Source: Candidatus Daviesbacteria bacterium (GTDB lineage: Bacteria; Patescibacteriota; Microgenomatia; Daviesbacterales; UBA10151). Taken from it: a DNA stretch of 64,000 nt. Position 1 is the first letter of the stretch; every line of letters begins with the position of its first letter. The notes beneath the pieces are model-generated. The model saw only the letters and a list, made by a program, of their open reading frames with translations, searched no databases and was not told where the DNA came from. Of the stretch, positions 4,079-41,559 are shown piece by piece. Made by a program: the position numbers and the translations under genes. The stretch is from contig JACPKP010000006.1 of the NCBI GenBank assembly GCA_016186955.1, forward strand, positions 4,055-68,054. The letters are read 5' to 3'.

Positions 4079-4116
4079 TTTAAGATGGATTTAATTTTTG
4101 TTATAGTATTAACATT

Positions 4117-13551: not shown

Positions 13552-14364
13552 ATGGATACCCCTGAAGAGTTAAGGAATACATTATCTTTAGAATCAAATC
13601 TTTCTAGAATTGGTATCACTTCCTTAACATTTCCTCAAATCTTTGAAAAATCAAGAATATTTGGTTTAAAAGCTAATCGTGCTTTTATACCTGAACAAAG
13701 GGGGAGGGTGGCAGATGCCTTATTATTGATGCTAGAGGTTCATTTTGATCAAAATCCTCGTCCAGATGGCACTCCTTATACGGACCACCCCCTAACCGTA
13801 GCAGATAAAATTATGGATATTATGGTTAATCCTGACCCAGAATTAGTCATAGCAGCCCTATTACATGATAGTGTAGAAGACCAAAGTAATAAACTAGCCA
13901 GAAAATATAGAGGATACAACGCAGATTCAACACTAACAGATGAGCAAGCGGCACTAGAATTTATAAAAGTACACTATGGTGCAAGGGTTGGAAGAACTGT
14001 AGCTGCTCTTTCAAATCCCGATTTCAATGCACAATTAGCAATTTTAGGAATAAATGAGAATCACCCTGATTATAGAATACATAAAAATATTCTTTACGCT
14101 CAACACGTTGCGGAAATCTCTGAAAATCCTGATGCGTTTTTAATTAAATTAATGGATTTTACTTCAAATGCTGGAGATTTAATGAAATTACCAGATGGAT
14201 CCCAAAAAATTAAACTAATGAGGAAATATGGCCCTGTTGTGGGTACCATGAAAGATGGACTGTCCCGATTAAATCTTCCTATTAAGGAAAAAGCAAAAAT
14301 TTTATTAGAAGCTAAATTAGAAGACATCGACAATTATATTAGTCAACAGATATCTGCAAAATGA
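13552..14364 (+). CDS. small alarmone hydrolase, RelA/SpoT-family HD domain (standalone SAH/Mesh1-like; 270 aa)
   Basis: HD motifs R-x-x-G-x-PY-x-x-HPL-x-VA and AALLHDSVED, then LIKLMD...N, match the Rel hydrolase-domain signature. TGA stop. Confidence 0.75.
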   Translation: MDTPEELRNTLSLESNLSRIGITSLTFPQIFEKSRIFGLKANRAFIPEQRGRVADALLLMLEVHFDQNPRPDGTPYTDHPLTVADKIMDIMVNPDPELVIAALLHDSVEDQSNKLARKYRGYNADSTLTDEQAALEFIKVHYGARVGRTVAALSNPDFNAQLAILGINENHPDYRIHKNILYAQHVAEISENPDAFLIKLMDFTSNAGDLMKLPDGSQKIKLMRKYGPVVGTMKDGLSRLNLPIKEKAKILLEAKLEDIDNYISQQISAK

Positions 14365-14554: not shown

Positions 14555-16402
14555 GTGGTGCTAAATATGAAAGAAGAAGATTTTTCAAGCATCAACAAGG
14601 CAAGGATTTTACCTCCCATTGGTTCAGAGCTTTTCCTTGCCAAACCCGAGCGCAAAGGTAGTTTACCTCCTAAAATTGCCCAAGACAATAGGCTCATTGA
14701 GCATGCAACGTTCAGGAGAGATCTTTATAAATTATTCGATCATATTTTTGAGTCTATTCAAAACCAAAATCTCAGTATTGGCCAAGCGGTTAAAAAGGGA
14801 TTGATCGGAAAATCAGTTGTTACACGCTTATGGGATGGGCTATCCGATTTTCTTAAGCAGGACGAAAACAATGCCAGAATCCTCCTTTATCTTCCGTTTG
14901 AAACCCTGCCGGATTTAACCGCCGAAAATTGTGTAGAGACTGCCACAGGGCAAAGACTGGTAAATTTATACCAAGATGCTTGGATCAGGCTTCTTCATGA
15001 AACAGAACCCCGGGCGAACTTTGTTGACGGCGATATATTGGAACCGGGTCTTGAACAACCCGAAAGAGTCAGCAAAGCAGGCCATCTTACCCCGGAACTT
15101 CTTATTAGGAAAATAATAACAATTACGGATATACTGCTACTTTTAGAAATAATCCCTGACGGAGATCCGTTAAAATCTATTGCCCAAGGAGTAATGGTTT
15201 CCAAAGATCGGGGACTCATAAGCGGGACAGATTGGGAAAAAGCTTGTGAAATTATTGAAAAAAGGATTAAAGACTTAAGCCTTTTATACCAAAGGGGAGA
15301 AGTTTTTAAAGACCCAAGCTCAGATAAAATTAGCCTGGAAAGGGCAAGTTGGTTAAGAAAAGTGCAGGAGGAAGAAGAGGAAAATAAAAAAGCGTACCTG
15401 CTGTCCCAACAAATTCTTGGCGGACAAAATTTAGAGGCTTTAGTCAAACTTGAGGGGTTGGGAACAGTAGTCATGGCATTAATAAAAACCGGTCAATACT
15501 TGGCCAAGAAGGACAGCGGACAAGCCAAAGAATTTGCCTGCCGGGCGGAAAAAATTATTCAGGAAGCTTGGGAATCAAACGAAATTTCCCTAAAGGATGC
15601 AGTATTGGGAGGGTTGAATCAATGGGCAAGGCTGGGAATTGTTGACAATGCATTTTTACAAACGTTGGGAATTAAATTGACTGATCTATCATCCCCATTC
15701 CAATACGATGAGGGGGGACTTTCTTATGAATTCAAAAGTTTGGTTACAGCCGCAAATAAAATAAAATCCCACCCATTTTTGTCCGGAGTTTTGTACCCGG
15801 GTTTTTTGGTATTTGGATCCAGGCTTAAGGGTTATGCGGATCTGAATGCCGACTTGGATGCTGCAATGTTTTTCAGGCCTAATGCAGATTTTAAAAACAG
15901 GATGCAAATTCTCAGAGTTTTAAGAAGAGAGATTCCTGAAATCCCCAGCATTGATAAATTTCTTGAGTATTGGACAACTTTTGAGGAAGGGAAATTGGTA
16001 TTTGGATCAATCAAGGAGGATACCAGAACATTTGTCGGAGAATCGGCAATACATTTTTTTATGGGCGGGGTTTGGATTGTTGGAGAGCCGGAAATTGCGG
16101 AGCTGCGTGACAACATGCTTGAAAGGTATTTAAATTTGTCCCGTTTTGGCGACGCTAAAATACAAATCAGGCAGAAATTCTTAGGCCAAATTGAACTGGA
16201 CATCCTGCAATACAGGTTAATGCATAAAGGATATGGGAAATTTTATCCGCGGGCAGATAAGGGATACACGCAAAATTCGGATTTGATCGATTATCAAAGC
16301 GATTTTTGGGATCCGGGATACAGGAGGGTTGCAACTAAATTATTTTTAAGCCGGGTTTTCCTGCCAGATCTATACCCAAAATACTTCAATCTGCAACTTT
16401 AA
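14555..16402 (+). CDS. large protein (615 aa) with a C-terminal pol-beta-superfamily nucleotidyltransferase motif
   Basis: LVFGSRLKGYADLNADLDAAMFF fits hG[GS]-x(9-13)-DhD of minimal nucleotidyltransferases. The N-terminal roughly 400 aa is helical with no recognisable motif. Confidence 0.55.
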   Translation: MVLNMKEEDFSSINKARILPPIGSELFLAKPERKGSLPPKIAQDNRLIEHATFRRDLYKLFDHIFESIQNQNLSIGQAVKKGLIGKSVVTRLWDGLSDFLKQDENNARILLYLPFETLPDLTAENCVETATGQRLVNLYQDAWIRLLHETEPRANFVDGDILEPGLEQPERVSKAGHLTPELLIRKIITITDILLLLEIIPDGDPLKSIAQGVMVSKDRGLISGTDWEKACEIIEKRIKDLSLLYQRGEVFKDPSSDKISLERASWLRKVQEEEEENKKAYLLSQQILGGQNLEALVKLEGLGTVVMALIKTGQYLAKKDSGQAKEFACRAEKIIQEAWESNEISLKDAVLGGLNQWARLGIVDNAFLQTLGIKLTDLSSPFQYDEGGLSYEFKSLVTAANKIKSHPFLSGVLYPGFLVFGSRLKGYADLNADLDAAMFFRPNADFKNRMQILRVLRREIPEIPSIDKFLEYWTTFEEGKLVFGSIKEDTRTFVGESAIHFFMGGVWIVGEPEIAELRDNMLERYLNLSRFGDAKIQIRQKFLGQIELDILQYRLMHKGYGKFYPRADKGYTQNSDLIDYQSDFWDPGYRRVATKLFLSRVFLPDLYPKYFNLQL

Positions 16403-16475: not shown

Positions 16476-17933
16476 CTACCCTTTGTTGAGAATACTTTGC
16501 CATTTAGGAAGAAAGCGCCTGTCTGCCACTTTCGGTCCATAAGCAGTTCCAACAACAGGTACTTCCAGTTTTTGTGTTACGTATTGCAAAAAGGCTTGTT
16601 CCAAACTTTGGCCTTTAGAGGACGTAAGGGTTGTGACTATTGGACGGCACTCGTTTAAAAGTTGAGTAAGCCGGAATTGGCGCTTATAGTGTGCCGGGTC
16701 GCCAGTATCAGGATGCACTTTTATGCCAATGATTTTATCTGCCGCTAAATCAAAATATTCATCCAAATCAGCAACATAACCCTGATATTTATAAGATTCA
16801 ACTACTTGCCAGTCATTTCTTCCAGATAAAACATCCATGTAACTTACCAGTAAACCGTCAAACGCTTTGCTTCTTTCCGCAAAAGTAAGGGAATATTTAA
16901 GAGCAACTGTATCAAAGTATCCGGTTCTGAAATCACCAAGCCAATCATTTGCGGCATTGTTATACGTTTCTACGAGTGTCTCTGTAAGTTCCGGGTCAAA
17001 ACTTACCAAAGGTCCTGCGCCGTGTCTTGTCAGGTAACTTCTGACAACACCAATTCTAAGGATATTCCCACCATAATTATGGTTTTTCAGTGTTGTTAAA
17101 ACATCTCCTGAGGTTGGGTCAACCTGGGTTACATGGGGAACAAAACCATACCGGGGGTGGTGAAGCGCTCCATGGGAAACTTCATTGACTATGGAACCAT
17201 CCTTTTTGAGTAATTCATCTAAATAATCATCTCCGGTAATTTTTATCAGATCCGCAGCATATCCAAAAGCATCTGCTACAAGACTGACAAGCTCTTTATC
17301 TCTCAACACGCTCATTTCGGAATAAACCCTATCCGGGGGAGCTCCTTCGTAAGAAACTAGTAACTCTTCCGCCGTCTTAAGTTTGGCCAGCCTAATATTT
17401 TCAACTTTTCTTAAGATTGTTTCCCTGTCGCTGAATTCACCTGCCCTTATTGAAAGTTCACTGTTAACTGAATCCTGCACTGCTTCACCAACACCTTTTC
17501 CAATTGTGCCTTTTCTATTCAGTCCGCGTAGTACCTCACGGGTTCTGCTTATTCCGCTATGGAAAGGGGTAGTTGCCAGACAATTTTCATCAATAAACAT
17601 TTTTTCCAGAGGGTTTGGGACTCCAAGCTTTTCTAAATCTAGCGCTTCCTGGAAAAGTTCGACCGGGCTTATGACCATATGTTTTAAATAGGTATCCGCA
17701 CCCTCAAACACACCCGCGCCAAAGTGGCTTAGCGCCATCTCGCGTCCGTCATCGTGGATAATATGGTGTCCGCCTTGCCAACCGCCGGAGCGCCACACAG
17801 TATGGGCATTCAGTTTCCGGACAAGCGCTTGGACAGTATTTCCTTTTGATTCTTCGCCCAAAGCAAGACCATTAACTATGGCAAAATATCTTTCGGTTCC
17901 CATAATTTTCCCTTTCGTCCTGAGCGTAGCCAA
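16476..17933 (-). CDS. adenylosuccinate synthetase (PurA)-family protein with a degenerate P-loop
   Basis: Reads NGLALGEESKGN where PurA has GDEGKGK. WQGGHHIIHDDG matches QGGHNAGHT, and YLTRHGAGPL matches TTRVGAGPFP. Confidence 0.6.
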   Translation of the reverse strand: MATLRTKGKIMGTERYFAIVNGLALGEESKGNTVQALVRKLNAHTVWRSGGWQGGHHIIHDDGREMALSHFGAGVFEGADTYLKHMVISPVELFQEALDLEKLGVPNPLEKMFIDENCLATTPFHSGISRTREVLRGLNRKGTIGKGVGEAVQDSVNSELSIRAGEFSDRETILRKVENIRLAKLKTAEELLVSYEGAPPDRVYSEMSVLRDKELVSLVADAFGYAADLIKITGDDYLDELLKKDGSIVNEVSHGALHHPRYGFVPHVTQVDPTSGDVLTTLKNHNYGGNILRIGVVRSYLTRHGAGPLVSFDPELTETLVETYNNAANDWLGDFRTGYFDTVALKYSLTFAERSKAFDGLLVSYMDVLSGRNDWQVVESYKYQGYVADLDEYFDLAADKIIGIKVHPDTGDPAHYKRQFRLTQLLNECRPIVTTLTSSKGQSLEQAFLQYVTQKLEVPVVGTAYGPKVADRRFLPKWQSILNKG

Positions 17934-18133
17934 GTCATGCTTGGCTAGTCGAAGGACTCATCAGTACGGATTTAATCCGCAGAGGGTTGGCAGCGGCCTG
18001 CGGAGACGATGTAATCCGGGGAAAGCATCACTTTATTGATGCAGCCCCAAAGAACAAAGTTTCCGCAGACCTTGAGCTTTTCAGCTCATGCTGCCCGCTT
18101 GCTCACCTTCGGGTGAGCGGTGAAGAGTGTTTG

Positions 18134-19309
18134 CTAACGATCCAAAGCCGGCGCATTCCAGTTGTCGCCACGTACGAGCGCCGGATCCCGCCTTGGCGGG
18201 CGAGAGGCAGCCTGTTTCCGGTTTGAGTCCTGTTCCTGGTCCAGCTTGTCCCAGGGAATGGCCCCCCCTAGCTGTAGTAGGGCGCCCAGGTAACCGTACT
18301 CCTCGTTGCCTGTAGCGACGTTGGACAGCTCCATGATACCCAAGGCATACCGAGTGATGTTACGTTCGAGACGGACGTAGTCCGCTCCAACGTTGACACC
18401 GAGCATCTTGAGCATCATGTCGCGGGTAGTAGCTCCGACAGTTGCCGGAAGTGCGGGGTCCTCCAGGATCCCCTTAATGCGCGTCGCGTCGTGCGCGAGA
18501 GCCCGAGCAACCGGAATTCCAAGGCCGCCAAAGACCTTGTTGATCCGGTTGATGACGGCTTCTGCCTCATCGCGCAGGCCGGCGGTGTCAGGCGGTTGGA
18601 GCATGCCTGGTGGCATAACAGCGGCACCCCCACGGCCGGTCTGAGCCATGGCGAGGACGGAAAGGGCCATCATAGGATTGTTCACCCCCTTGGCCCACGT
18701 ATCGGTCCAGTTGATGAGCAGCTCGTTGAAGCTGCGAAGCGCCGGCCAGAGTTCGGTGTTGAGCCGGGCGAGGAAAGCGCTCTTGCGCTTGTCGCTCATG
18801 AAATTGCCCGGGTACCCGAGCGCCGACAGGACATCCCCGTAACGGCGTTGCTGAGCCAGCTGGTAGACCTTCTTGAAGTTCTCACCGGCAGGCTCTTCCT
18901 GCTCATCGGCAAACTGCTCTGCACGCGCCAGCAGGACTTCAGGTAGTTCGTACAACCCGACCCTTGCAGCGATTGCAGCTCTCATAGCCGACATCACGTC
19001 GATCCGCTCAACCTTGAGCATCCCTCCGACCTTGAGCATCTCCAGGAAGCTTGAGTCGTCAGGAACGGTCGGAAGCGTGTCGAGCGAAGCCGGTTCGGCA
19101 GTGACCTGTTCGGCCGCAGGTGGCGCGGGGGCGAAGGCTTTAGCAGCCTTCTTGGCCGCGATCACGGTGCATCCGGTGATTTCCCGGATTTCATACTCGT
19201 TTAGGAGCACCATTTCGGCATCGCCCGCGACCCCCTGGTCGGCAAGCTTGCCGGTTTGCTCCTCCGAGAAGCCCAGCTCTGTGAGCCGGGTCTTCAGTTC
19301 CTCGTTCAT
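18134..19309 (-). CDS. high-GC hypothetical protein (about 391 aa; start MNEELKTRL preceded by AAAGGAG)
   Basis: Ala/Arg/Gly-rich with GC-rich codons. I used the internal start at 19307..19309, which has a strong RBS. Confidence 0.5.
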   Translation of the reverse strand: MNEELKTRLTELGFSEEQTGKLADQGVAGDAEMVLLNEYEIREITGCTVIAAKKAAKAFAPAPPAAEQVTAEPASLDTLPTVPDDSSFLEMLKVGGMLKVERIDVMSAMRAAIAARVGLYELPEVLLARAEQFADEQEEPAGENFKKVYQLAQQRRYGDVLSALGYPGNFMSDKRKSAFLARLNTELWPALRSFNELLINWTDTWAKGVNNPMMALSVLAMAQTGRGGAAVMPPGMLQPPDTAGLRDEAEAVINRINKVFGGLGIPVARALAHDATRIKGILEDPALPATVGATTRDMMLKMLGVNVGADYVRLERNITRYALGIMELSNVATGNEEYGYLGALLQLGGAIPWDKLDQEQDSNRKQAASRPPRRDPALVRGDNWNAPALDR

Positions 19310-19401
19310 GAAAAACTCCTTTTTGTTTGCTGTCCACAACACATAGCTGTGGATGCGGGGAAACTTCCGTTTCCTCCTTTCTTCACAGTTTCGGGCTGTT
19401 A

Positions 19402-20526
19402 CTAAGAATCGGCTTCTAAAGGTGTAACGTTTTCGCCTTGCCTCGAGTGGCTGATGGGCCATGCGTGGCGGTAGTGGGCGAATACATCTCCCGGGCGGGG
19501 GATGTCCTGGTAGCCGGGCAGCTTAGACTGAGCGCCAAAATGCTCCTGCGCTACCTGAACCATCCGCCAAACCTGATTGAGGTTGGCGGCGTCAATCGTT
19601 ACCTTATCGCCGGTCCGCAGGAACTCGATTAGACCCTGCTTGCTCGGCTTTGACGCCTCCGTCACATAGACGAGGGCTGCACGCACGTCAGCCAAAAGAC
19701 CCGGGTTTTCAACCTGGATGATCCGGCTGCGTCCTCCCAGCTTCTCCGCCCACCAATCCGTAGTGTACGGAAGGAGTCGGCCGGTATAAGTAGGGACTTG
19801 CAGTACGAAAGGATGCCAATGCTCCAAGAGCTGCCGGCAGATTTCCTCCGTCGCCATATTCAAGAAATCAGCTGCCTGGCCAAGATATTCCCTGACGCCC
19901 TCAGCGGTCACGAACCCGCGTCCGATCTCGTCTAAGGCGATCGTCAAATAGCCCTTGAGACCGTAGTAGGTCCATGTGTCCGCGTAGACCGACAGGGCGT
20001 AGTACAGGCCCAAATCGTAATCTTCGGCTGACGAGTCGTTTCCCATGCTTGCAGGCTGGAGCAGCCGCACCTGTTCGGCGCTCCGCTCATCAGACTCAAA
20101 CTGAGAAACTTGAACGACCGGAAGTCCGTCGTTATGGACATTGTAAAAGTCATTTACAACGCCTGTTGCGAGCTGCGGGTTGTACCGGGTTCGCACTCCA
20201 TCAAGCAGCTTGTACTGTCGCTCGGCTGTGCGGAAGAAATCCCCAACATATTGGGATGTACTCCCGGTGCCGTCGAAAAGACTGAGAACCGGCAAGGAAA
20301 CACCGTGGGTCAGAAGATAGGTACCTGGTTCATCACTGGGAACCATCGCGTTATGGCTTTCCCGCGGCTTCTTGCCGACGATGTCGACATTGGGATGAAG
20401 GTGGCCTGTTACGTCGCGGTACGTTTTTCCCGCATCGTGAACACCCTCATGCCGTTGATTCATAGAGCGGACAGTCGCCCGGTAGGATTCCGGGTCAAAT
20501 TGCCGTACATTTTGGGGATTCCCCAT
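19402..20526 (-). CDS. high-GC hypothetical protein (374 aa); possible vWA-like MIDAS-type motif LFDGTGST
   Basis: RBS ggaaaggag before the ATG. The flanking promoter region is AT-rich. The motif assignment is tentative. Confidence 0.45.
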   Translation of the reverse strand: MGNPQNVRQFDPESYRATVRSMNQRHEGVHDAGKTYRDVTGHLHPNVDIVGKKPRESHNAMVPSDEPGTYLLTHGVSLPVLSLFDGTGSTSQYVGDFFRTAERQYKLLDGVRTRYNPQLATGVVNDFYNVHNDGLPVVQVSQFESDERSAEQVRLLQPASMGNDSSAEDYDLGLYYALSVYADTWTYYGLKGYLTIALDEIGRGFVTAEGVREYLGQAADFLNMATEEICRQLLEHWHPFVLQVPTYTGRLLPYTTDWWAEKLGGRSRIIQVENPGLLADVRAALVYVTEASKPSKQGLIEFLRTGDKVTIDAANLNQVWRMVQVAQEHFGAQSKLPGYQDIPRPGDVFAHYRHAWPISHSRQGENVTPLEADS

Positions 20527-20941
20527 CTCAGACTCCTTTCCAAAGGTTATTTACAGTCCAACCAATCAAGATACGTTACGTGCCTTTGATCAGCCGTTGA
20601 TAGTTACCTCCTTTCACTCTTCACTTGTCAATGTGCCTTTTGCCTAGTTTTCTAGACAAACAGGTAAATCTTTATCAGGATCCACTTGTTTGTTTAGAAA
20701 ACGTCGTCAATTGTACTCTAAAATGTAATTTTGTGTCAAGGAACGCTGGCATGAAACAATATAGTGTTAATATTACACTAACTATTGGGAGAAATCAAGA
20801 TCCAAAAGCTCGGTATTTCAATTAAACTCTTCTGAGTATGACGCAACAAATTTACTACAAGATAATATGGTATAATTCAATTATGAATAAAAATGCAGCA
20901 TACAAAGCTAAAGAACCAAAAAAGTTTTAACAGTTCAATTT

Positions 20942-21781
20942 ATGGATCAACAGGAATCTGACCCGGAAAGTACGTTAATTGAGGAGGAGGCAAAAAGTAA
21001 AATAAGGGATTTTTTATCAGATCCAAAATTAAAATTCCACTTCTCCCGTCCATACAGGCTCCAGCAAATACTTTCGCAGGGGATTATTTCCAAGTCATTC
21101 GCAGACCGTGCAAAGCTTGATTATGAAAGTAATTTAGGAATTAGAAATCCAAGGTTAATCAGTATTTCAGACCGGGTAAAAAATAACGAATGGGGCGACT
21201 GGTGGTTGATACAATTTGCGTCGGAGAGGGACAATATCGGTTATTTGCTGCCAAGTGATTTGGAGATTGAATCAACGACCCCTCATCCTTCCGAATCACA
21301 GGTTAAATTCAGGATCAGCCCGAGACAAATAGAAGGCATCTTCGTTATGGATACAAAAACCTTACAAGAACCCATCAGCCAAATTGATTACAGTCTTGAT
21401 GCAACCGGTTTTGTTGCCAGGTATACATTAGCATTAGAAAAAGTTTCCGATTTCAACAGGGAATCGATTCGGAAAAATCATCCCCGTCTTAAATATCTGG
21501 AACACGAACTAAGGGACTTAAGACAAGGTGTGGCTGGTATGAAATATAAGGACTGGCCGGAAGGTGTAAAAAAAGCAATCAGCCTGTTTATTGACCGGGA
21601 AGACGAGATTATTGATGAAATTGCAAAGAAACAGTTGGAAGAATTAATCGGTAAACCCGCTGAAACTATTACACAGCTTGACCTTTACACCCACTTTGCA
21701 AAAAAAGCCGGAATACCAATTTATATTATTGATAAAAATTTATTGGCTGCCAAAGTAGTTTGGCCTCCTGTTGGTAGGTAA
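20942..21781 (+). CDS. hypothetical protein (279 aa)
   Basis: Intact ORF with no motif recognised. Confidence 0.4.
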   Translation: MDQQESDPESTLIEEEAKSKIRDFLSDPKLKFHFSRPYRLQQILSQGIISKSFADRAKLDYESNLGIRNPRLISISDRVKNNEWGDWWLIQFASERDNIGYLLPSDLEIESTTPHPSESQVKFRISPRQIEGIFVMDTKTLQEPISQIDYSLDATGFVARYTLALEKVSDFNRESIRKNHPRLKYLEHELRDLRQGVAGMKYKDWPEGVKKAISLFIDREDEIIDEIAKKQLEELIGKPAETITQLDLYTHFAKKAGIPIYIIDKNLLAAKVVWPPVGR

Positions 21782-22493: not shown

Positions 22494-24359
22494 TTATCTA
22501 CTGAAGAAGAAATCCCAAATAATCTGGAGGAAATCGCGTCCGGCAGAAACTGATACACCCTGGACACTGGGAGCTGGGGTAGACTGCTGCGGGGCAGGAG
22601 TTGACTGATCCGGGGCAGGGGTAGATGATGAAGTTGTCGGCGCCGGGGTAGAGTTGCTGGTACTGCCGGATGAAGCACACTGGCATTGGCAATAATCACC
22701 GCTCCAGTTGCAACTCCCGCCGCACGAGGTGCAACCTGCTTGCTGCTGGTCACGGCTCATTGTAGATGTAGTCGTAGAAGTTGAATTGGAAGTACTACCG
22801 CTAGGCATTTGGCAGTAAGAGCCGTTCCAACTACCTCCTGCCTGTCCACAGGCTGTGGCAGGATCGCTGCTATAACCTGAAGATGAATAAGGATAGGGCG
22901 TAGCATAGCTCCCTCCGCTTGTTGTCCCTGAAGAATTGTATCCGGCGCATCTGCAATAACCCGGGCTCCAGTCACAGGTTCCTCCGCCAGACCTACATGT
23001 TGACTCCTGACTCTCCCTGCTTCCATAATAGCCGGAAGAAGATGGATAACTAGACGTTCCCGGGTAAGGTGAGTAGCTTGCTCCCGGTGCGCCACCACTA
23101 ATCGGGCTTTGGTAACCCTTGCAATAACAGTGTCCTGAACTCCAATCGCATGTCCCGCCTCCAGACTTACAAGTCGATTCCTGGCTTTCTTTACTTCCGT
23201 AATAACCATCCTGCGAACCAGGGGTGTATGTTTTGATCTCCCCGTTAAAAGCGCACGCACATGAATTGTTTGTCCATTTACAATTAGTTGTCCTGTTACA
23301 CATATCCTGGGGATTATAATTTCCGGTAGTGCCTTCAGGTGAAGAATCACGGCAGGATCCGCCATCCCAATACCTACCCGCCTGGGAACACCTCCAAGCG
23401 TCCTGACTTTTATCCAGGGGTGTACAAACACCTCCAGGACCGTAGTAATAGTTAGCGGGACAAGCTTGTGTATAAACATTCCCACCGTATGAACCGCAGG
23501 CGCAGGTATTATTATTCCATGCGCAATTAGGCGTCCTGGCGCAGTATTCCTGAGGGGTATAGTTGCTACCACCCTCACGGTTTTGCGATATAGACCGGCA
23601 TTTTTCCGGGTTTTGTCTGCAGTATGCAGCGCAGGATTCTGCAGTGTTACAACCGCCCGGACCACTGAAGGATTCCACCCCGACTGATTTTGAATATGAT
23701 GAACATATGTTGTAGTTAGCTGGGTCGCTGCAAAAGGCTTTACAGGTGCCTTCTGAGCTGCATCCACCCGGACCAACCTGCTGCTGGCCGCCGCGCAAAC
23801 CTACCTCCTTTGCAAACTCTGAGCATTTTTGCTTGTTTGCCTCCAATCCGCAAAACGTCATGCAATCTTGGGGTGAAGTACAACCTAAGGCCTCTTTTGC
23901 TTTTTCCAGGATCTTTTTTTCTTCTGTTGACCTGACCTGGCCTCCAACCAGGTTATTTTTCCTGGCAAACGAGTCGCATTCATCTACATGCTCCGGCTTA
24001 TCGCAATAACTTTTACAGCTTTCAAAGGAATTACACCCAAAACTTTGTTTTGCCTTGGCTAAAATCTCATCTTTTTTGACAGTTTCCTGCTCTTCTTTAT
24101 AAAAACCTTTCTTTTTGGCAAAATCAATACAGGTCGTATAGTTTACCGGATCCTCACAAAAGCTCCTGCATGATGAGATATCCTGGCAATCACCAAGTTC
24201 TGCAACCGGAAATGTCACACCATATTTTTGGGCAGTCTCGGCAGAATCACTGGCTGATTGGGTTTGGGCAAAAACACCTTTTACCCCAAAAAACAAAAAA
24301 ATAACAGCCGCAAGAGGGAAAATTATTTTTTTGTATTGTCCGTATATAGTTTCTGTCAT
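22494..24359 (-). CDS. secreted Cys-rich repeat protein with a Ser/Tyr/Pro/Thr-rich tail and a C-terminal QIIWDF motif (621 aa)
   Basis: N-terminal signal peptide. Repeated modules of about 40 aa (C-x-SFC-x-P-x-NY-x-C-x-FAKK-G-(F/Y)) and GPGGC-x-T-x-E-x-C. Ends with DFLQIIWDFFFSR. Confidence 0.6.
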   Translation of the reverse strand: MTETIYGQYKKIIFPLAAVIFLFFGVKGVFAQTQSASDSAETAQKYGVTFPVAELGDCQDISSCRSFCEDPVNYTTCIDFAKKKGFYKEEQETVKKDEILAKAKQSFGCNSFESCKSYCDKPEHVDECDSFARKNNLVGGQVRSTEEKKILEKAKEALGCTSPQDCMTFCGLEANKQKCSEFAKEVGLRGGQQQVGPGGCSSEGTCKAFCSDPANYNICSSYSKSVGVESFSGPGGCNTAESCAAYCRQNPEKCRSISQNREGGSNYTPQEYCARTPNCAWNNNTCACGSYGGNVYTQACPANYYYGPGGVCTPLDKSQDAWRCSQAGRYWDGGSCRDSSPEGTTGNYNPQDMCNRTTNCKWTNNSCACAFNGEIKTYTPGSQDGYYGSKESQESTCKSGGGTCDWSSGHCYCKGYQSPISGGAPGASYSPYPGTSSYPSSSGYYGSRESQESTCRSGGGTCDWSPGYCRCAGYNSSGTTSGGSYATPYPYSSSGYSSDPATACGQAGGSWNGSYCQMPSGSTSNSTSTTTSTMSRDQQQAGCTSCGGSCNWSGDYCQCQCASSGSTSNSTPAPTTSSSTPAPDQSTPAPQQSTPAPSVQGVSVSAGRDFLQIIWDFFFSR

Positions 24360-24672: not shown

Positions 24673-27264
24673 TTAAACCACACTCAAACACCACGTTTGT
24701 TGTTTTTGGTTTTGAATTTTTTTGCACTCATTTTTGGCAAAGTTTTTATCAGAATCCCAATCGAGTAAGGAAGTACCTATCTGTTTAAAACAACTTTCCT
24801 GATGAATGCTGCTCAAATTCGAGCAAAAATCAATCATCTTATTAGTCTTGCCCACGAATCTATACGACAGAGAAGATATTACTCCACCTATGCAAACACT
24901 TTGAAAATGCAAAGAAAGCATACTCTCACAATTTGTTTTCATTAAAGCAAAATCTTTTGTAAAACCAACTTGGTTGGTGCCAATGGTCCTGATGCAATTA
25001 TCCTGGAACTTTTCAGGGATTTTGAAACACATACGGGCTACCTTAGCAAAATCCTGGTGGTTCAAAATTGCAAAATATGAACTCTGGTATTGCCAACAAA
25101 GCGCCAAATATTTTTCTTCTAAAATGTTACATGGATAAAACGGATCATCTTTTTTCAGGTATACTGTTGCGTGATCAAGTGAGGTAGATGAAGAAGAATT
25201 TTCCATAAATACCCCTGTGTAACATTTTTCTTTATGTATTTGCGACTCAAGGGCATCACAAAGTCTCAAGGATTCCTTAAGTTCCATATCCGTTACAAAC
25301 ATGGCTGCATGCCCCAACCCATGTAAACACTCATAATATTCCAAAGGTTTTGTATAATCTTCCAATTTCCCACAAATTTTTGGGAATTGTGCAGCAAGGC
25401 TTGCTTCGGTTTCAAGGTTTTGACTTTTTAAGTAAGCCTCAATTGTGCCATGATAGCAACCCCCATGACAGGTTGAATCACACTGGCTATAAACACCACT
25501 TATATTATTTAACTTTTCAAATTCTAGCCGGGAGAGGTAGTGGGTAACTTCGTGGCATCTGGCAAAAACTTCCTGATAGTCTTCGTTTTCTCTCAAAAGA
25601 CTCATGGTTTTTGACAAACCAAACTGGTCATATAAAACTTTTGCAACCCTCTTATAACAATTATCCCGACCGCCACTGCCATAACAGATGTTTAACTGAT
25701 CCCTCAAATATGCATTTTTATCCTGCCCTATCTCTACCGAGCTGAAATTATTTTTTTTTTGCCTGCCATATTCTTTGATAATTGTCTCCAGATATTTTAA
25801 GCATTCATCCGGGTTTTGCAGACTCTGACAAACCATTGTTGATTTATCACCCCAACCTGGAATTTCCTGAAATATTAATTCTCCTGCGGCAGCTTTTGTA
25901 CAGGCTGCCAAGTAATTTGGGTCGCTTATTTGCCGGCAACCGCTTATGATTTGTTTGGGATCGCCCGATGCAGCTATATAAAAACCTAATGAATCAACAC
26001 AAGCTTTTTTAAACTGCTCAGAGGTTGAATTTAAACAAACCTTTATCACATCATCAAAGCTTAAATGAAATCTACTCATCAGCAGAGTAGCCTGATTTCT
26101 ACCACAGCTAAATGAATATTTTGGTCCAAAATTTGCCTCTAAATCATCGCAGGGGTAATAAGGGTCATCCTTTTTATAAAAATTTTGGCTTGCCGACCTT
26201 GCAAACTCCATAAAAACTCCATCAAAACAGTAATCGTTTCCTGATTGCAATTTTCTACAGGCAGCCAATGCCTCCTGAAGGTCTTTGGTTGTATAAAAAC
26301 TTGCAACCCCGTGGCCTATTCCATGCATACAACTTGCAAAAGGACCACCTGTTCCGAGTTTATTGCATGCATCTTCTGCTTTGGGTAAATCTTTTAAGCT
26401 TTTCTCAAAAGCCTTATCTAAAAAGCCATGGAAGCAGCCAAAAGCAAAGTCCTGCGAACAAATAGTGATACCTGAAAAACTTTTCTTTTCGTAAATAAGC
26501 TTTCCCATCAGGTGAGTCAAATCATGAACATTTCCGGTAGTTCCTCCCTGTCCTTGATAAGTTTGTTTTAGAAACTGCCAAGTATTTTCAACCCCCTCAA
26601 TCTCCACCATCTCATTTATACTTTTAATTTGTTCATCAGGAGAAAGTTTGTTTAAGTTTGGGCGGATAAAACTTTTATTTTGGTTTTGTGTTTGATTATT
26701 TTTTTTGAAGTTAAAATGAAACAAACTACTGAAAAAGTTTGAAATTTTATTTTTAGCAATTTCAAACCAATTTTGTTTAGTAGTTTTTGGAGGCGGAAAA
26801 TCCTGATCAACCGCACTTGTTTCACCATTGACAATCAATTCTCCTCGAAAATGCGGATAAAGGTGATCATGGAATTTCCAATTGCCGGTTTTAGGTTTAA
26901 AAGCCCAATCCCTTCCAGGGTCTATCTCATGTTTGGGGTCAAACTCAGGATAGGTATCATGAGTAGGATGGATGTTGGAAGCTGGCCAATGCGCATTACT
27001 GCCTTCATTAATAAATATTACAGTTGTATCGGAATCAATCTCAATTGTTTGCGGATCAAACCCATTATCTGTTATTTTAATCACTTGAGTTGCAGAGTGG
27101 GCAAAAGTCGGTTGAGGGAAAAATGAACTATTCTGCAGTAAACTGCGGAGTATCCCTTCGGGAAAGTTCTTCTGTGAACCATTCATCCTCCACAAAGCTT
27201 GCGAGGTATTCTGGTTCAAGAATAACAAAAAGGAGATTAAAAAAAATTTTAAAAAACCCCCCAT
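24673..27264 (-). CDS. secreted protein (863 aa) with an N-terminal cupredoxin-like beta domain and repeated C-x-HG-x-GH modules
   Basis: Signal peptide. VIKITDNGFDPQTIEIDSDTTVIFINEGSNAHWPAS resembles a cupredoxin-like segment. Repeats include CFHGFLD, CMHGIGHG, CYHGTIE and CLHGLGHA. Paralogous to 31051..32274. Confidence 0.55.
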   Translation of the reverse strand: MGGFLKFFLISFLLFLNQNTSQALWRMNGSQKNFPEGILRSLLQNSSFFPQPTFAHSATQVIKITDNGFDPQTIEIDSDTTVIFINEGSNAHWPASNIHPTHDTYPEFDPKHEIDPGRDWAFKPKTGNWKFHDHLYPHFRGELIVNGETSAVDQDFPPPKTTKQNWFEIAKNKISNFFSSLFHFNFKKNNQTQNQNKSFIRPNLNKLSPDEQIKSINEMVEIEGVENTWQFLKQTYQGQGGTTGNVHDLTHLMGKLIYEKKSFSGITICSQDFAFGCFHGFLDKAFEKSLKDLPKAEDACNKLGTGGPFASCMHGIGHGVASFYTTKDLQEALAACRKLQSGNDYCFDGVFMEFARSASQNFYKKDDPYYPCDDLEANFGPKYSFSCGRNQATLLMSRFHLSFDDVIKVCLNSTSEQFKKACVDSLGFYIAASGDPKQIISGCRQISDPNYLAACTKAAAGELIFQEIPGWGDKSTMVCQSLQNPDECLKYLETIIKEYGRQKKNNFSSVEIGQDKNAYLRDQLNICYGSGGRDNCYKRVAKVLYDQFGLSKTMSLLRENEDYQEVFARCHEVTHYLSRLEFEKLNNISGVYSQCDSTCHGGCYHGTIEAYLKSQNLETEASLAAQFPKICGKLEDYTKPLEYYECLHGLGHAAMFVTDMELKESLRLCDALESQIHKEKCYTGVFMENSSSSTSLDHATVYLKKDDPFYPCNILEEKYLALCWQYQSSYFAILNHQDFAKVARMCFKIPEKFQDNCIRTIGTNQVGFTKDFALMKTNCESMLSLHFQSVCIGGVISSLSYRFVGKTNKMIDFCSNLSSIHQESCFKQIGTSLLDWDSDKNFAKNECKKIQNQKQQTWCLSVV

Positions 27265-27317
27265 ACTTAATCAAAATTATACATAAATGAAAATTTTAAG
27301 AAAGTGTTAAAAAAATT

Positions 27318-41511: not shown

Positions 41512-41559
41512 CAGAACATCCACACCTCCTCCTCTTCCCCTTTTGCCGGCCTGGGGCCG

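What the first reader, a model, noticed from the sequence alone, without database searches (positions are those of the whole stretch)
16476..17933. PurA-family protein with a degenerate GDEGKGK P-loop
The 485-aa protein aligns by eye to adenylosuccinate synthetase along its length (QGGHNAGHT-like WQGGHHIIHDDG; TRVGAGP-like TRHGAGPL). The N-terminal GTP-binding loop reads GEESKGN instead of GDEGKGK.

PurA homologs with altered active sites are known to have been recruited for non-canonical roles, such as phage PurZ for 2-aminoadenine synthesis. This copy sits between the SAH/NTase island and the high-GC insert. It may not be a housekeeping PurA, and most reduced CPR-type genomes lack purine biosynthesis anyway.
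Basis: partly seen in the sequence, partly recalled or inferred. Interest (0 to 1): 0.55.

Follow-up and report, generated by a model that had tools for sequence, protein, structure and literature searches.

The report
Non-canonical PurA-like enzyme in conserved module
This gene is annotated as adenylosuccinate synthetase but has lost the aspartate-binding site, and it is one part of a conserved gene set shared by tiny CPR (Patescibacteria) bacteria and large phages, preceded by a self-cleaving hammerhead ribozyme, so it probably makes something other than the AMP precursor.

Summary
Window 16476-17903(-) encodes a 475-aa PF00709 protein whose P-loop reads GEESKGN. The ATG at 17903 is the likely start, and the 485-aa ORF begins at a TTG.

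It is not a credible housekeeping PurA. It scores 97-110 bits against PurA equivalog models whose cut-offs are 395-402. In 81 close relatives, catalytic Asp13 is Glu, Gln224 is His, and the aspartate-binding loop (Thr300/Thr301/Arg303/Arg305) is replaced by W-L-G-x-F. Lys16, His41 and Asp333 are kept. It is not PurZ either.

It belongs to an undescribed PurA-like clade that is always encoded next to a vWA protein. This holds in Patescibacteria and in Mycobacterium, Rhizobium and Vibrio phages. In Patescibacteria the gene is also adjacent to a 615-aa nucleotidyltransferase, and the two are fused in one metagenomic protein.

Their GC-richness recurs in every locus examined.

A type III hammerhead ribozyme motif lies directly 5' of the start codon (17910-17986). 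It shows covariation, and its stem III contains the Shine-Dalgarno sequence.

Most likely this is a GTP-dependent ligase with a non-aspartate nucleophile. Its substrate is unknown.

The parts
16476..17903 (-). PurA-like CDS, 475 aa (P). The longer ORF extends to a TTG at 17933.
   Evidence: ORF. PF00709 at E 6e-42. PurA equivalog models score 97-110 bits against cut-offs of 395-402. PDB PurA hits at E 3e-26. 100% identical to NCBI 'adenylosuccinate synthetase [Candidatus Daviesbacteria bacterium]'. SD plus ATG at 17903.
17838..17858 (-). Variant P-loop GEESKGN (E. coli GDEGKGK): Asp13->Glu, Gly15->Ser, Lys16 kept, Lys18->Asn.
   Evidence: Translation. In 81 relatives: Glu 80/81, Lys16 81/81.
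16926..16949 (-). NDWLGDFR, the segment that replaces the aspartate-binding loop GATTGRRR of PurA.
   Evidence: Translation. Trp 81/81, Leu 74/81, Phe 79/81, and no Arg303 or Arg305 equivalent. PurZ keeps TT..KKVRR.
17910..17986 (-). Type III hammerhead ribozyme motif. Layout: stem III CCC/GGG, cleavage triplet CUC, stem I UGCGGAU/AUCCGUA, core CUGAUGA, stem II GUCC/GGAC with a 33-nt insert, then GAAA. The predicted cut is between 17982 and 17981. The stem III 3' strand is the Shine-Dalgarno sequence of the PurA-like gene.
   Evidence: Rfam RF00008 at 27 bits, E 0.0018, below the gathering score. A descriptor scan finds the same element before the PurA-like start in 7 further loci, with 0 hits in 20 shuffles. 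The MFE fold is the three-way junction, z -3.96. Covariation.
18134..19309 (-). X (type X1), 391 aa, no known domain, GC3 0.72. It fills the variable 'slot' of the module.
   Evidence: 53% identical to L007_412. Also found in L018 and L022. Its N-terminal ~60 aa are shared with the alternative slot protein X2. No Pfam, PHROG or PDB hit.
19402..20526 (-). B, a vWA-fold protein (NCBI start 20463, 353 aa) with an invariant MIDAS-like D85-x-T87-G88-S89. GC3 0.64.
   Evidence: Homologues lie directly upstream of the PurA-like gene in all loci. AF2 pLDDT 94.8. Foldseek finds integrin beta-I/vWA domains at E ~3e-6. Invariant columns.
14555..16402 (+). C, 615 aa: an alpha-helical N-terminal region plus a Pol-beta-type nucleotidyltransferase domain (G421-S422 ... 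D433-x-D435 invariant). Convergent with the PurA-like gene.
   Evidence: Pfam Polbeta, weak. Profile hit to the MNT protein HI0073. Present next to the PurA-like gene in 10 of 10 loci. Fused to a PurA-like domain in P0249. AF2 pLDDT 92 with no whole-chain fold match.
20710..20739 (-). Sigma-70-like promoter candidate (TTGACA-18-TACAAT, 11/12) upstream of B.
   Evidence: This is a consensus match only.

Best explanation
The gene encodes a catalytically competent member of a distinct, uncharacterised clade of the PurA (PF00709) superfamily. It is not adenylosuccinate synthetase.

What is shown:
- The protein keeps the phosphoryl-transfer and GTP-binding parts of PurA: the P-loop Lys16, Gly40/His41, the glycine-rich loops, the guanine-specifying Asp333, and Thr239.
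- The family replaces the base-edge residues (Asp13->Glu, Gln224->His).
- It loses two of the IMP 5'-phosphate ligands (Thr129->Ile/Val, Arg143->Glu/Asp), while a Lys or His appears at position 126.
- It replaces the whole aspartate pocket (Thr300, Thr301, Arg303, Arg305) with Trp-Leu-Gly-x-Phe.

What is inferred:
- The protein still uses GTP-Mg2+ to phosphorylate a carbonyl oxygen of a purine-type nucleotide.
- The activated intermediate is attacked by a nucleophile other than free L-aspartate, giving a 6-substituted nucleotide of unknown identity.
- The protein works as part of a conserved module. The vWA protein B is its invariable neighbour in both phages and CPR bacteria. The nucleotidyltransferase C is adjacent and once fused, so it is likely a physical partner acting on the same substrate or product. 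A pseudokinase-like protein A and/or a variable protein X complete the module.

Expression of the gene is coupled to a hammerhead ribozyme whose stem III sequesters the Shine-Dalgarno sequence. Self-cleavage would separate the GC-rich upstream mRNA from the PurA-like mRNA and free the ribosome-binding site. Cleavage itself is inferred, not shown.
For: Superfamily membership without PurA membership:
- PF00709 at 144 bits, but TIGR00184 and NF002223 score 97/110 bits against cut-offs of 395/402, and PurZ scores 15.9 against 300.

Residue mapping on 81 relatives that are 41-84% identical:
- Changed: D13E 80/81, N38Q 76/81, Q224H 80/81, V273H 74/81, T300W 81/81, R305F 79/81.
- Kept: K16 81/81, H41 76/81, T239 81/81, D333 81/81.

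The invariant columns sit on PurA's active-site loops, which indicates selection on a working active site.

A distance tree places the family with phage PurA-like proteins, apart from both PurA and PurZ.

Conserved neighbourhood:
- B lies upstream and C downstream in 10 of 10 Patescibacteria loci with usable flanks. The same holds in Parcubacteria.
- B sits directly upstream of the PurA-like gene in Mycobacterium cluster C, Rhizobium and Vibrio phages.

Fusions: P0249 is PurA-like plus C. P0425 is probably A plus B.

Folds: B is a vWA fold. The NTase motif of C is invariant.

Housekeeping proteins in the same window match their Pfam families strongly, for example ATP synthase beta at 253 bits and PheS at 278 bits. 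General CPR divergence therefore does not explain the weak PurA score.

Published context: 99% of canonical PurA proteins keep Asp13 (PMC12884076). 93% of Patescibacteria genomes lack de novo nucleotide synthesis (bioRxiv 10.64898/2026.06.21.733656).

Ribozyme.
Against: - No biochemical data exist for any member of the clade, and the substrate and nucleophile are unknown.
- Asp->Glu at position 13 is conservative and could still act as base and Mg2+ ligand. Thr239, Gln38 and a new Lys126 could still hold a 5'-phosphate. IMP as the nucleotide substrate is therefore not excluded.
- The assignment of residues to ligands rests on my knowledge of the E. coli AdSS crystal structures and on a sequence alignment. 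It does not rest on a model with ligands.
- The loop around 298-305 can be aligned in two registers. Neither register restores the Thr-Thr/Arg residues.
- The single PurA-like+C fusion could be an assembly or gene-calling artefact.
- I could not check the rest of the genome for purB.
- The hammerhead scores below Rfam's gathering threshold, and self-cleavage is untested.
Confidence: 0.6

Rival explanations
1. It is a genuine but fast-evolving adenylosuccinate synthetase that converts salvaged IMP to adenylosuccinate for AMP supply in a reduced CPR genome.
For: - Full-length homology to PurA.
- Lys16, His41, Asp333 and Thr239 are conserved, and Asp13->Glu is conservative.
- NCBI and JGI annotate the family as adenylosuccinate synthase.
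Against: - It scores about 290 bits below the PurA equivalog cut-offs.
- All four aspartate-binding residues are absent in 81 of 81 relatives, Gln224->His, and Arg143->Glu/Asp. PurZ, which also uses aspartate, keeps the Thr-Thr/basic loop.
- No purB in the window or in any 15-17 kb neighbourhood.
- The conserved neighbours are a vWA protein, a pseudokinase-like protein and an NTase, not purine genes.
- Other housekeeping proteins of this genome are not unusually divergent.
- 93% of Patescibacteria lack de novo nucleotide synthesis.
Confidence: 0.1
2. It is a non-catalytic GTP-binding subunit, either a pseudoenzyme or a switch. In this reading it scaffolds or regulates the vWA/pseudokinase/NTase complex, and the only real enzyme is the nucleotidyltransferase C.
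For: - The substrate-binding residues for IMP phosphate and aspartate are lost, while the GTP-binding elements are kept.
- The partners A (HRD and DFG aspartates missing; sequences) and B (vWA) are typical non-catalytic interaction modules.
- PurA belongs to the SIMIBI class of P-loop NTPases (my knowledge), and this class includes GTP-dependent switches.
Against: - The replacing residues are themselves almost invariant: Glu13, Gln38, His224, His273, Trp300 and Phe305 at 74-81 of 81. The catalytic His41 is kept. This pattern fits a remodelled pocket rather than a decayed one.
- The phage members of the clade keep Asp13 and Gln224.
Confidence: 0.13
3. It is a one-step aminase: GTP-dependent phosphorylation of IMP (or XMP/GMP) followed by attack of ammonia rather than aspartate. 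This would give AMP without PurB, which would be useful to phages and to CPR bacteria that live on scavenged nucleotides.
For: - Loss of the aspartate pocket with retention of the phosphoryl-transfer core.
- The chemistry is analogous to other carbonyl-activating P-loop amidoligases such as CTP synthase (my knowledge).
- No purB nearby.
- The phage copies sit among nucleotide-metabolism genes: RNR, NMNAT/Nudix, PRTase and polynucleotide kinase.
Against: - No glutaminase or ammonia-channel partner is found in the module.
- It does not explain the obligatory vWA partner, the NTase fusion, or the pseudokinase and X proteins.
- The Glu13/His224 changes suggest a changed purine edge rather than IMP.
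Confidence: 0.1
4. It is a PurZ-type enzyme that makes the precursor of 2-aminoadenine for Z-DNA.
For: Only the general precedent that PurA paralogues with an altered position 13 have new substrates.
Against: - The PurZ model NF038379 scores 15.9 bits against a cut-off of 300.
- PurZ has Ser at position 13 in 100% of phage sequences, whereas this protein has Glu.
- PurZ keeps the aspartate loop.
- No datZ, mazZ or dpoZ in the neighbourhood.
- It falls in a separate clade in the tree.
Confidence: 0.02

Closest known systems
Adenylosuccinate synthetase PurA (EC 6.3.4.4; E. coli structures 1ADE, 1CG0, 1GIM)
   Same: Same fold and full-length homology (PF00709, E 6e-42). It keeps the P-loop Lys16, Gly40/His41, Thr239, the TR-x-GAGP loop, Asp333 of the guanine-specificity motif, and the C-terminal G-P motif.
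   Different: - Asp13->Glu, Asn38->Gln, Thr129->Ile, Arg143->Glu, Gln224->His, Val273->His, Lys331->Tyr and Ser414->Ala.
- The aspartate loop GATTGRRR is replaced by NDWLGDFR.
- There is a ~40-residue insertion in the C-terminal part.
- It scores 97-110 bits against equivalog cut-offs of 395-402.
- The gene context is vWA/NTase rather than purine genes.
PurZ / PurZ0 (N6-succino-2-amino-2'-deoxyadenylate synthase of Z-genome phages; PDB 6FM1, 7ODX, 7VF6)
   Same: It is another PF00709 paralogue in which the residue at position 13 has changed along with substrate specificity. It is also phage-associated.
   Different: PurZ is about 340 aa, has Ser at position 13, retains the Thr-Thr/Lys-Arg aspartate loop, and travels with datZ, mazZ and dpoZ. 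The window protein fails the PurZ HMM (15.9 against 300) and clusters elsewhere in the tree.
'PurA-like adenylosuccinate synthetase' of cluster C mycobacteriophages (Bxz1 gp250, YoungMoneyMata gp263; phrog_1211), with homologues in Rhizobium and Vibrio phages
   Same: - It is the closest annotated relative: 31% identity, E 2e-46, better than any canonical PurA.
- Shared signatures: (H/K)G(S/T)xG, TRHGxGP, W-(Q/L)-G-x-(F/L)-R in place of the aspartate loop, and H/Y in place of Lys331.
- It always has a vWA gene directly upstream, and in mycobacteriophages a kinase-like gene as well.
   Different: The phage proteins keep Asp13 and Gln224, whereas the window's family has Glu13 and His224. The phages lack the NTase C and protein X. 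The phage kinase-like protein carries a J-domain, and the phage vWA gene carries an intein. No function has been published for the phage proteins in the library I could search.
TerY-P triad (vWA protein TerY + Ser/Thr kinase + PP2C phosphatase, linked to a 'nucleoside-like metabolite' pathway; Anantharaman, Iyer and Aravind 2012, recalled from memory and not checked here)
   Same: It combines a vWA protein and a protein-kinase-fold protein with nucleotide-modifying enzymes in one conserved neighbourhood.
   Different: No PP2C phosphatase and no Ter proteins are present. The kinase-like protein here lacks the catalytic aspartates. B gives no hit to the Pfam VWA models. The resemblance is architectural only.
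Hammerhead ribozyme, type III (Rfam RF00008)
   Same: It has three stems with stems I and II capped and stem III open, the cores CUGAUGA and GAAA, and an N-U-H cleavage triplet. Covariation is seen in all three stems.
   Different: - It scores below Rfam's gathering threshold (27 against 48.5 bits).
- The window copy has a 33-nt insertion in stem II.
- It sits inside a bacterial operon, with its 3' stem III strand serving as the Shine-Dalgarno sequence of the downstream gene.
- One relative has the core variant CCGAUGA.

Membership tests
Adenylosuccinate synthetase (PurA, EC 6.3.4.4) | Homology to PF00709 over the whole catalytic domain | tested here: met
   E 6e-42, 144 bits, residues 19-388. 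PDB PurA hits at E 3e-26.
Adenylosuccinate synthetase (PurA, EC 6.3.4.4) | Score above the curated equivalog cut-off (TIGR00184 395.55, NF002223 402) | tested here: not met
   96.9 and 110.2 bits.
Adenylosuccinate synthetase (PurA, EC 6.3.4.4) | Catalytic base and Mg2+ ligand Asp13 in GDEGKGK (99% conserved in canonical PurA, PMC12884076) | tested here: not met
   Glu in the window protein and in 80 of 81 relatives. Literature figure.
Adenylosuccinate synthetase (PurA, EC 6.3.4.4) | Phosphoryl-transfer residues Lys16 and His41 (with Gly40) | tested here: met
   Lys 81/81, His 76/81, Gly 77/81. The register is supported by phage intermediates.
Adenylosuccinate synthetase (PurA, EC 6.3.4.4) | L-aspartate site: Thr300, Thr301, Arg303, Arg305 | tested here: not met
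   Replaced by Trp (81/81), Leu (74/81), a deletion, and Phe (79/81). Ligand roles are from my knowledge of the E. coli AdSS-hadacidin complexes.
Adenylosuccinate synthetase (PurA, EC 6.3.4.4) | IMP site: Asn38, Thr129, Thr239 and Arg143' (5'-phosphate); Gln224 (base) | tested here: not met
   Only Thr239 is kept. Asn38->Gln, Thr129->Ile/Val, Arg143->Glu/Asp, Gln224->His.
Adenylosuccinate synthetase (PurA, EC 6.3.4.4) | Guanine specificity motif (T/N)KxD and Ser414 | tested here: inconclusive
   Asp333 is 81/81, but Lys331->Tyr/Phe/His and Ser414->Ala/Gly.
Adenylosuccinate synthetase (PurA, EC 6.3.4.4) | A partner adenylosuccinate lyase (purB) in the genome | not testable with these tools
   No Lyase_1 protein among the ORFs scanned, which include every window ORF long enough to encode PurB, or in the neighbourhoods of relatives. 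The rest of the genome could not be searched.
PurZ (succino-amino-deoxyadenylate synthase) | Score above the NF038379 cut-off (300 bits), and Ser at position 13 | tested here: not met
   15.9 bits. The residue is Glu at position 13. PurZ has Ser in 100% of phage sequences.
vWA-associated PurA-like clade (phage 'PurA-like', phrog_1211; defined in this analysis) | Sequence signatures: basic residue at position 126, TRHGxGP, W-(Q/L)-G-x-(F/L)-R in place of GATTGRRR, and H/Y/F at position 331 | tested here: met
   KGTIG, TRHGAGP, WLGDFR and SYMD in the window protein. phrog_1211 at E 8e-45.
vWA-associated PurA-like clade (phage 'PurA-like', phrog_1211; defined in this analysis) | A vWA-fold gene immediately upstream | tested here: met
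   Window 19402-20526, with the slot gene X in between. Seen in 10 of 10 Patescibacteria loci and 3 phage groups. vWA fold.
Hammerhead ribozyme type III (RF00008) | Conserved cores CUGANGA and GAAA, an N-U-H cleavage site, and a three-helix junction | tested here: met
   Window 17910-17986(-).
Hammerhead ribozyme type III (RF00008) | Helices supported by covariation | tested here: met
   98.5% of cells paired, 6 of 15 pairs with compensatory changes, 0 of 500 shuffles as high, and slid controls at most 51% paired. Hand parse of 9 elements.
Hammerhead ribozyme type III (RF00008) | Rfam gathering score (48.5 bits) | tested here: not met
   27 bits in the window. Nothing at gathering in 9 related loci.
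Hammerhead ribozyme type III (RF00008) | Self-cleavage | not testable with these tools
   Requires an in-vitro transcription and cleavage assay.

The most novel reading that the evidence does not exclude
The PurA-like protein, its vWA partner and the fused or adjacent nucleotidyltransferase may form a previously unrecognised nucleotide-ligation system shared by large phages and CPR bacteria. In this reading a GTP-activated purine nucleotide is joined to a non-aspartate amine. That amine could be on a protein, such as the variable X protein or another target held by the vWA MIDAS site, or it could be a small molecule that yields a new modified nucleotide or signal. The system would be expressed from an operon that hammerhead ribozymes cut into separately handled GC-rich and AT-rich mRNAs.
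Probability: 0.3. Interest if true: 0.85.

Novelty: new variant of a known kind. Interest (0 to 1): 0.66.

Why it matters
1. PF00709 hits are routinely read as 'purA'. They are used as markers of purine biosynthesis in metabolic reconstructions of CPR/Patescibacteria, for example in the 2026 preprint read. This family would be a systematic false positive.

2. The PurA superfamily has already yielded one new nucleotide chemistry (PurZ and the Z-genome). Here is a second, larger divergent clade: the partner vWA family alone has about 1,070 clusters at 50% identity. It has a remodelled third-substrate pocket and obligatory partner proteins, so it is a concrete and testable candidate for new chemistry.

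3. The same gene pair occurs in mycobacteriophages, in Rhizobium and Vibrio phages, and in the chromosomes of ultra-small bacteria. This links phage and CPR biology.

4. The module carries conserved hammerhead ribozymes that overlap a ribosome-binding site, and it combines GC-rich and AT-rich genes in one locus. This makes it a tractable natural case of ribozyme-mediated operon processing in bacteria.

Tried and rejected
- PADLOC defence models gave no hit for P, B, C, X or the HD protein. There was only a marginal PDC-S23 hit for the unrelated ORF 20942-21781.
- Profile searches against PDB sequences found nothing for B, X1 or X2. For C they found only the 33-residue NTase motif.
- Foldseek of the high-confidence C model against PDB and BFVD gave no significant whole-chain match.
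- Rfam at gathering threshold found only two tRNAs in the window and nothing in 9 related loci.
- The search for related loci failed with the broad alignment. With the narrow alignment it returned only 6 genome loci.
- Literature searches for PurA-like plus vWA, kinase, phage or CPR, and for hammerhead plus CPR, found no description of this clade or module.
- I considered whether the SAH-like HD protein (13552-14364) belongs to the module. I rejected this because it has no counterpart in any other locus.
- I considered highly-expressed-gene codon bias as the cause of the high GC of B and X. I rejected this because the ATP synthase genes in the window have GC3 of 0.42-0.45, against 0.64-0.72 for B and X.
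- I considered simple recent horizontal transfer. This is unlikely for B, because B proteins are as divergent as the PurA-like proteins (30-60% identity) yet are GC-rich in every genome.
- MAFFT mis-registered the hammerheads that have different loop lengths. Covariation was therefore counted on 9 copies of equal geometry and by a hand parse.
Full report
**1. The observation**

The ORF 16476-17933(-) exists (485 aa, TTG start). The ATG at 17903 is preceded by AAGGGA at the right distance. It gives the 475-aa protein that NCBI annotates as 'adenylosuccinate synthetase [Candidatus Daviesbacteria bacterium]' (P0001, 100% identical). That Met is invariant among close relatives. I number the protein from this Met.

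Homology to PurA is unambiguous:
- PF00709 at E 6e-42.
- E. coli AdSS structures at E 3e-26 over residues 19-383.
- A MAFFT alignment with E. coli PurA also aligns the C-terminal region up to the S-T-G-P motif, which reads AYGP here. A ~40-residue insertion lies before it.

The P-loop reads GEESKGN (17838-17858) and TRHGAGPL is present. Phage relatives read NGGAQAGHTV. They show that SGGWQGGHH, not WQGGHHIIH, corresponds to QGGHNAGHT. His41 and Gly40 are therefore conserved.

**2. It is not a canonical PurA and not PurZ**

NCBIfam PurA equivalog models score 97-110 bits against cut-offs of 395-402. The PurZ model scores 15.9 against 300.

The database search returned about 81 relatives at 41-84% identity. 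All are 465-520 aa and come from Patescibacteria (Daviesbacteria, Woesebacteria, Roizmanbacteria). A tail of more distant proteins followed. I aligned all 105 hits with E. coli PurA and mapped E. coli's ligand-contact residues onto them. The ligand roles come from my knowledge of the AdSS-GDP-6-phosphoryl-IMP-hadacidin complexes.

| E. coli residue | State in the 81 relatives | Count |
|---|---|---|
| Gly12, Lys16 | kept | 81/81 each |
| Gly17 | kept | 78/81 |
| Gly40 | kept | 77/81 |
| His41 | kept | 76/81 |
| Thr239 | kept | 81/81 |
| Asp333 | kept | 81/81 |
| Asp13 | Glu | 80/81 |
| Asn38 | Gln | 76/81 |
| Ile126 | Lys | 76/81 |
| Thr129 | Ile/Val | 76/81 |
| Arg143 | Glu/Asp | 60/81 |
| Gln224 | His | 80/81 |
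| Val273 | His | 74/81 |
| Thr300 | Trp | 81/81 |
| Thr301 | Leu | 74/81 |
| Arg303 | deleted | 81/81 |
| Arg305 | Phe | 79/81 |
| Lys331 | Tyr/Phe/His | 81/81 |
| Ser414 | Ala/Gly | 73/81 |

The TR-x-GAGP loop and the glycine-rich loop G-T-x-G-x-G-x-G are also kept.

So the phosphoryl-transfer and guanine-binding core is under strong selection. The aspartate pocket is gone, and the residues that read the purine edge have changed together. The replacements are themselves nearly invariant. That pattern fits a remodelled pocket, not a decayed one.

Three further points support this.
- PurZ of phiVC8, which still uses aspartate, keeps a Thr-Thr/Lys-Lys-x-Arg-Arg loop.
- A 2026 survey reports Asp13 in 99% of canonical PurA and Ser in 100% of phage PurZ (PMC12884076). 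Glu fits neither group.
- General CPR divergence is not the explanation. Housekeeping proteins in the same window match their families strongly: ATP synthase alpha and beta at 253-271 bits, PheS at 278 bits, methylmalonyl-CoA mutase at 644 bits.

**3. The clade**

The closest annotated relatives are not cellular PurA proteins. They are the 'PurA-like adenylosuccinate synthetase' of cluster C mycobacteriophages (31% identity, E 2e-46) and phrog_1211 (E 8e-45).

Motif tables define a broad clade:
- (H/K)G(S/T)xGxGxGE
- TRHGxGP
- W/x-(Q/L)-G-x-(F/L)-R in place of GATTGRRR
- (T/S)-(H/Y)-x-D in place of TKLD

A distance tree separates this clade from both canonical PurA and PurZ. Within it, the phage and Parcubacteria-type members keep Asp13 and Gln224. 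The Glu13/His224 pair is a derived feature of the window's subfamily.

**4. The surroundings are the partners**

I looked at where relatives are encoded and compared the neighbouring proteins. A conserved module emerges.

| Gene | Size | Nature | Position relative to the PurA-like gene (P) |
|---|---|---|---|
| A | 270-330 aa | weak protein-kinase fold | upstream of B (when present) |
| B | 350-400 aa | vWA fold | upstream |
| slot (X1 or X2) | 330-410 aa | no known domain | between B and P, or downstream of P (when present) |
| P | 465-520 aa | PurA-like | reference |
| C | 610-660 aa | helical region + NTase | downstream |

B is present upstream and C downstream in 10 of 10 Patescibacteria loci with sequence on that side. 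The same order holds in Parcubacteria-type loci.

In the window the module is:
- B = 19402-20526(-)
- X1 = 18134-19309(-)
- P = 16476-17903(-)
- C = 14555-16402(+)

- **B.** Its AF2 model is confident (pLDDT 94.8). It matches integrin beta-I/vWA domains (E ~3e-6). A MIDAS-like D-x-T-G-S is invariant in 83 sequences.
- **C.** It has an invariant GS...DxD Pol-beta NTase motif. The confident model (pLDDT 92) has no whole-chain match in PDB or BFVD.
- **A.** It matches Pkinase and phrog_3043 weakly. In Patescibacteria it lacks the HRD and DFG aspartates (sequences), so it is likely a pseudokinase.
- **The slot proteins.** They share an N-terminal ~60-aa domain (MNEELKxxLxxLG...) but come in two unrelated bodies, X1 and X2. 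Each body is conserved across distant lineages.

Three lines tie P to its neighbours beyond adjacency.
- *Phage co-occurrence.* The B-then-P gene pair recurs in three unrelated phage groups. These are Mycobacterium cluster C (gp261 vWA with an intein, next to gp263; a J-domain kinase-like gp260 lies upstream), Rhizobium Kleczkowskaviridae, and 191-kb Vibrio phages. The phage hit lists for P and B show the same Rhizobium (10) and Vibrio (6) counts, and Mycobacterium phages dominate both lists (201 for P, 140 for B).
- *Fusions.* P0249 (1081 aa) is P fused to C, and it is itself preceded by A and B. P0425 (679 aa) appears to be A fused to B, on weak evidence.
- *Overlapping genes.* In L003 and L019, P and C are co-directional with overlapping stop and start codons.

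The B family alone comprises about 1,070 clusters at 50% identity, of which 109 reach E <= 1e-30.

**5. A ribozyme in front of the gene**

While checking the start codon I noticed CUGAUGAGUCC...GGACGAAA immediately upstream.

- *Rfam.* Hammerhead_3 matches window 17907-17989(-) at 27 bits. E is 0.0018 in a 701-nt search and 0.025 in a 9.5-kb search. This is below the gathering score.
- *Descriptor scan.* A structure descriptor I wrote finds the same architecture ending 0-22 nt before the PurA-like start codon in L003, L005, L014, L017, L018 and L020. It finds nothing in 20 shuffles of 412 kb, and only one unrelated weak hit.
- *Variants.* L015 and L001 carry variants: CUGACGA with one stem I mismatch, and CCGAUGA.
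- *Predicted fold.* The MFE fold of the window element is exactly the three-way junction (-29.2 kcal/mol, z -3.96).
- *Covariation.* All three stems covary. On nine compact copies, 98.5% of cells pair, 6 of 15 pairs show compensatory changes, 0 of 500 shuffles reach this, and slid controls give at most 51% paired.

The 3' strand of stem III (GGG, AGG or AGGA) is the Shine-Dalgarno sequence of the PurA-like gene. In L017 the stem even reaches the AUG.

Cleavage after C17 (window 17982|17981) would detach the upstream B-X transcript. Because stem III is only 3-5 bp, it should also release the SD. This is an inferred mechanism.

Eight of these carry module genes (L038, L044, L084, L088, L101, L107, L114, L126). 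In them, hammerheads also occur upstream of A, just downstream of B, and about 500 nt downstream of X. Ribozymes therefore bracket the GC-rich genes of the module. I found no paper linking hammerheads with CPR bacteria.

**6. The GC anomaly**

B and X have GC3 of 0.64 and 0.72. Every other ORF in the window lies at 0.22-0.53, P is at 0.36, and C is at 0.39.

The same contrast holds in every locus examined. L003 is an example. Its genome is 36% GC, A and B have GC3 of 0.67 and 0.68, and P and C have 0.19 and 0.18. B proteins are only 30-60% identical between loci.

The GC-richness of A, B and X is thus a conserved property, not a recent insertion. It is not explained by highly-expressed-gene codon bias. 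I have no tested explanation. Speculatively, the cause could be phage ancestry maintained by selection, or an mRNA-level requirement connected with the ribozyme processing.

**7. What it most likely does**

*Shown:*
- An intact, selected GTP/phosphoryl-transfer core.
- A remodelled third-substrate pocket.
- An obligatory vWA neighbour in phages and in CPR bacteria.
- An adjacent NTase, which is fused in one case.

*Inferred:*
- P is a GTP-dependent ligase that activates a purine-nucleotide carbonyl as PurA does, but couples it to a nucleophile other than free aspartate.
- B, C and A/X act with it as a complex, or as consecutive steps or targets.

The basic residue that appears at position 126 across the clade, together with the loss of Arg143 (which in PurA comes from the other subunit of the dimer), suggests that a 5'-phosphate is still bound, but in cis.

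I cannot name the product. Rival readings are scored in the report:

| Reading | Score |
|---|---|
| Genuine divergent AdSS | 0.10 |
| Pseudoenzyme or switch | 0.13 |
| Ammonia-dependent one-step aminase | 0.10 |
| PurZ-like | 0.02 |

**8. Context and novelty**

93% of Patescibacteria genomes are reported to lack de novo nucleotide synthesis. Adenylosuccinate synthase is used as a marker for that pathway (bioRxiv 10.64898/2026.06.21.733656). This family would be a false positive for that marker.

The existence of 'PurA-like' genes in cluster C mycobacteriophages is recorded in annotations. A recent phylogeny lumps such sequences as 'other PurA homologs'. I found no description of the following:
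- the clade's active-site signature;
- its vWA/NTase/pseudokinase module;
- its presence in CPR chromosomes;
- the associated hammerheads.

I rate it a new variant of a known kind, with interest 0.66.

**Limits**
- There is no biochemistry for any member.
- There is no ligand-bound model.
- The genome-wide purB check was not possible.
- Only one P-C fusion is known.
- Ribozyme activity is untested.

Noticed in passing
window 17910-17986 (-); also L003 7930-7980, L005 7935-7996, L014 244-321, L017 7951-8001, L018 4751-4811, L020 7929-7994: A type III hammerhead ribozyme motif lies directly 5' of the PurA-like start codon. Its stem III 3' strand doubles as the Shine-Dalgarno sequence. It is supported by covariation but scores below Rfam's gathering threshold (27 against 48.5 bits).
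   Followed up: yes
L038 34-58, L114 410-434, L044 4012-4037 and 5977-6001, L084 7975-7999, L107 5257-5281 on the - strand (coordinates on the reverse complement): In metagenomic copies of the module, further hammerheads sit upstream of gene A, just downstream of gene B, and about 500 nt downstream of gene X. Ribozymes therefore bracket the GC-rich genes. Eight of 120 loci hit by a generic hammerhead core pattern belong to this module.
   Followed up: partly
window 18134-20526 (-); L001 5708-7795, L003 5734-7878, L006 2977-5160, L007 5826-7892 and 9639-10877: Genes A, B and X of the module are much GC-richer than their genomes in every locus (GC3 0.57-0.72 against 0.18-0.43 for the adjacent PurA-like and NTase genes). 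The proteins are only 30-60% identical between loci. The cause is unknown.
   Followed up: partly
window 18134-19309 (-); L005 6812-7843, L015 6819-7817, L017 6713-7792, L023 9623-10636: The 'slot' gene between B and the PurA-like gene comes in two unrelated bodies, X1 and X2. They share a ~60-aa N-terminal domain (MNEELKxxLxxLG(L/F)(T/S)(D/E)EQ). X1 is more conserved between distant lineages (53% identity) than P, B or C (about 30%). No known domain or structure matches.
   Followed up: partly
P0249 (L020 7997-11242); P0425: These are natural fusion proteins. P0249 is PurA-like plus NTase C (1081 aa). P0425 is probably kinase-like A plus vWA B (679 aa). Each is a single sequence from metagenome assemblies.
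   Followed up: partly
L011 4933-6714 (Mycobacterium phage YoungMoneyMata gp261) and 3824-4897 (gp260): The phage vWA homologue is interrupted by an intein-like insert (CNTPD...HN). The neighbouring 'serine/threonine kinase' has an N-terminal J-domain with an HPD motif, but reads HGA instead of HRD in the catalytic loop.
   Followed up: no
L001 4791-5447, L005 4756-5430, L015 4807-5463, L016 4907-5575, L023 4937-5611: An NrtR-type regulator (Nudix plus winged helix) lies just upstream of the module in five loci from both Microgenomates and Parcubacteria. L023 also has a NAMPT_N fragment. In Rhizobium phage the B-P pair sits beside NAMPT-like and NMNAT/Nudix genes. This is a possible link to NAD/ADP-ribose metabolism. 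No counterpart is present in the window.
   Followed up: partly
It is not conserved next to the module in any other locus, and it has the lowest GC3 (0.22) in the window.
   Followed up: yes
window 17990-18133 (-); L015 7815-7930; L001 7790-7930: The spacer between the upstream gene and the hammerhead contains further GC-rich hairpins (window GCUCACC-CGAA-GGUGAGC). A short motif CUGCUC/CUGUUC recurs just 5' of stem III in most copies.
   Followed up: no
window 41696-43294 (+) and 43298-44341 (+): A full-length methylmalonyl-CoA mutase (644 bits) lies in a CPR-type genome, followed by a 347-aa ORF with no Pfam hit. The preceding kilobase, 41001-42000, which overlaps only the first ~300 bp of the gene, is locally GC-rich (0.53); the mutase ORF itself is 0.47 GC.
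   Followed up: no
window 22494-24359 (-): A 621-aa protein with a signal-peptide-like N-terminus, many regularly spaced cysteines, and a long Ser/Thr/Pro/Gly-rich tail. It has no Pfam hit.
   Followed up: no
window 27001-29000; ORF 28323-30017 (-): This region has a strong local GC skew (+0.25 to +0.42). It overlaps a 564-aa ORF with no Pfam hit and an unusual GC2 of 0.51.
   Followed up: no
L003 1143-3918: A CBASS-like pair (a SAVED protein plus a SMODS/AGS_C nucleotidyltransferase) lies 2-4 kb upstream of the module in one relative.
   Followed up: no
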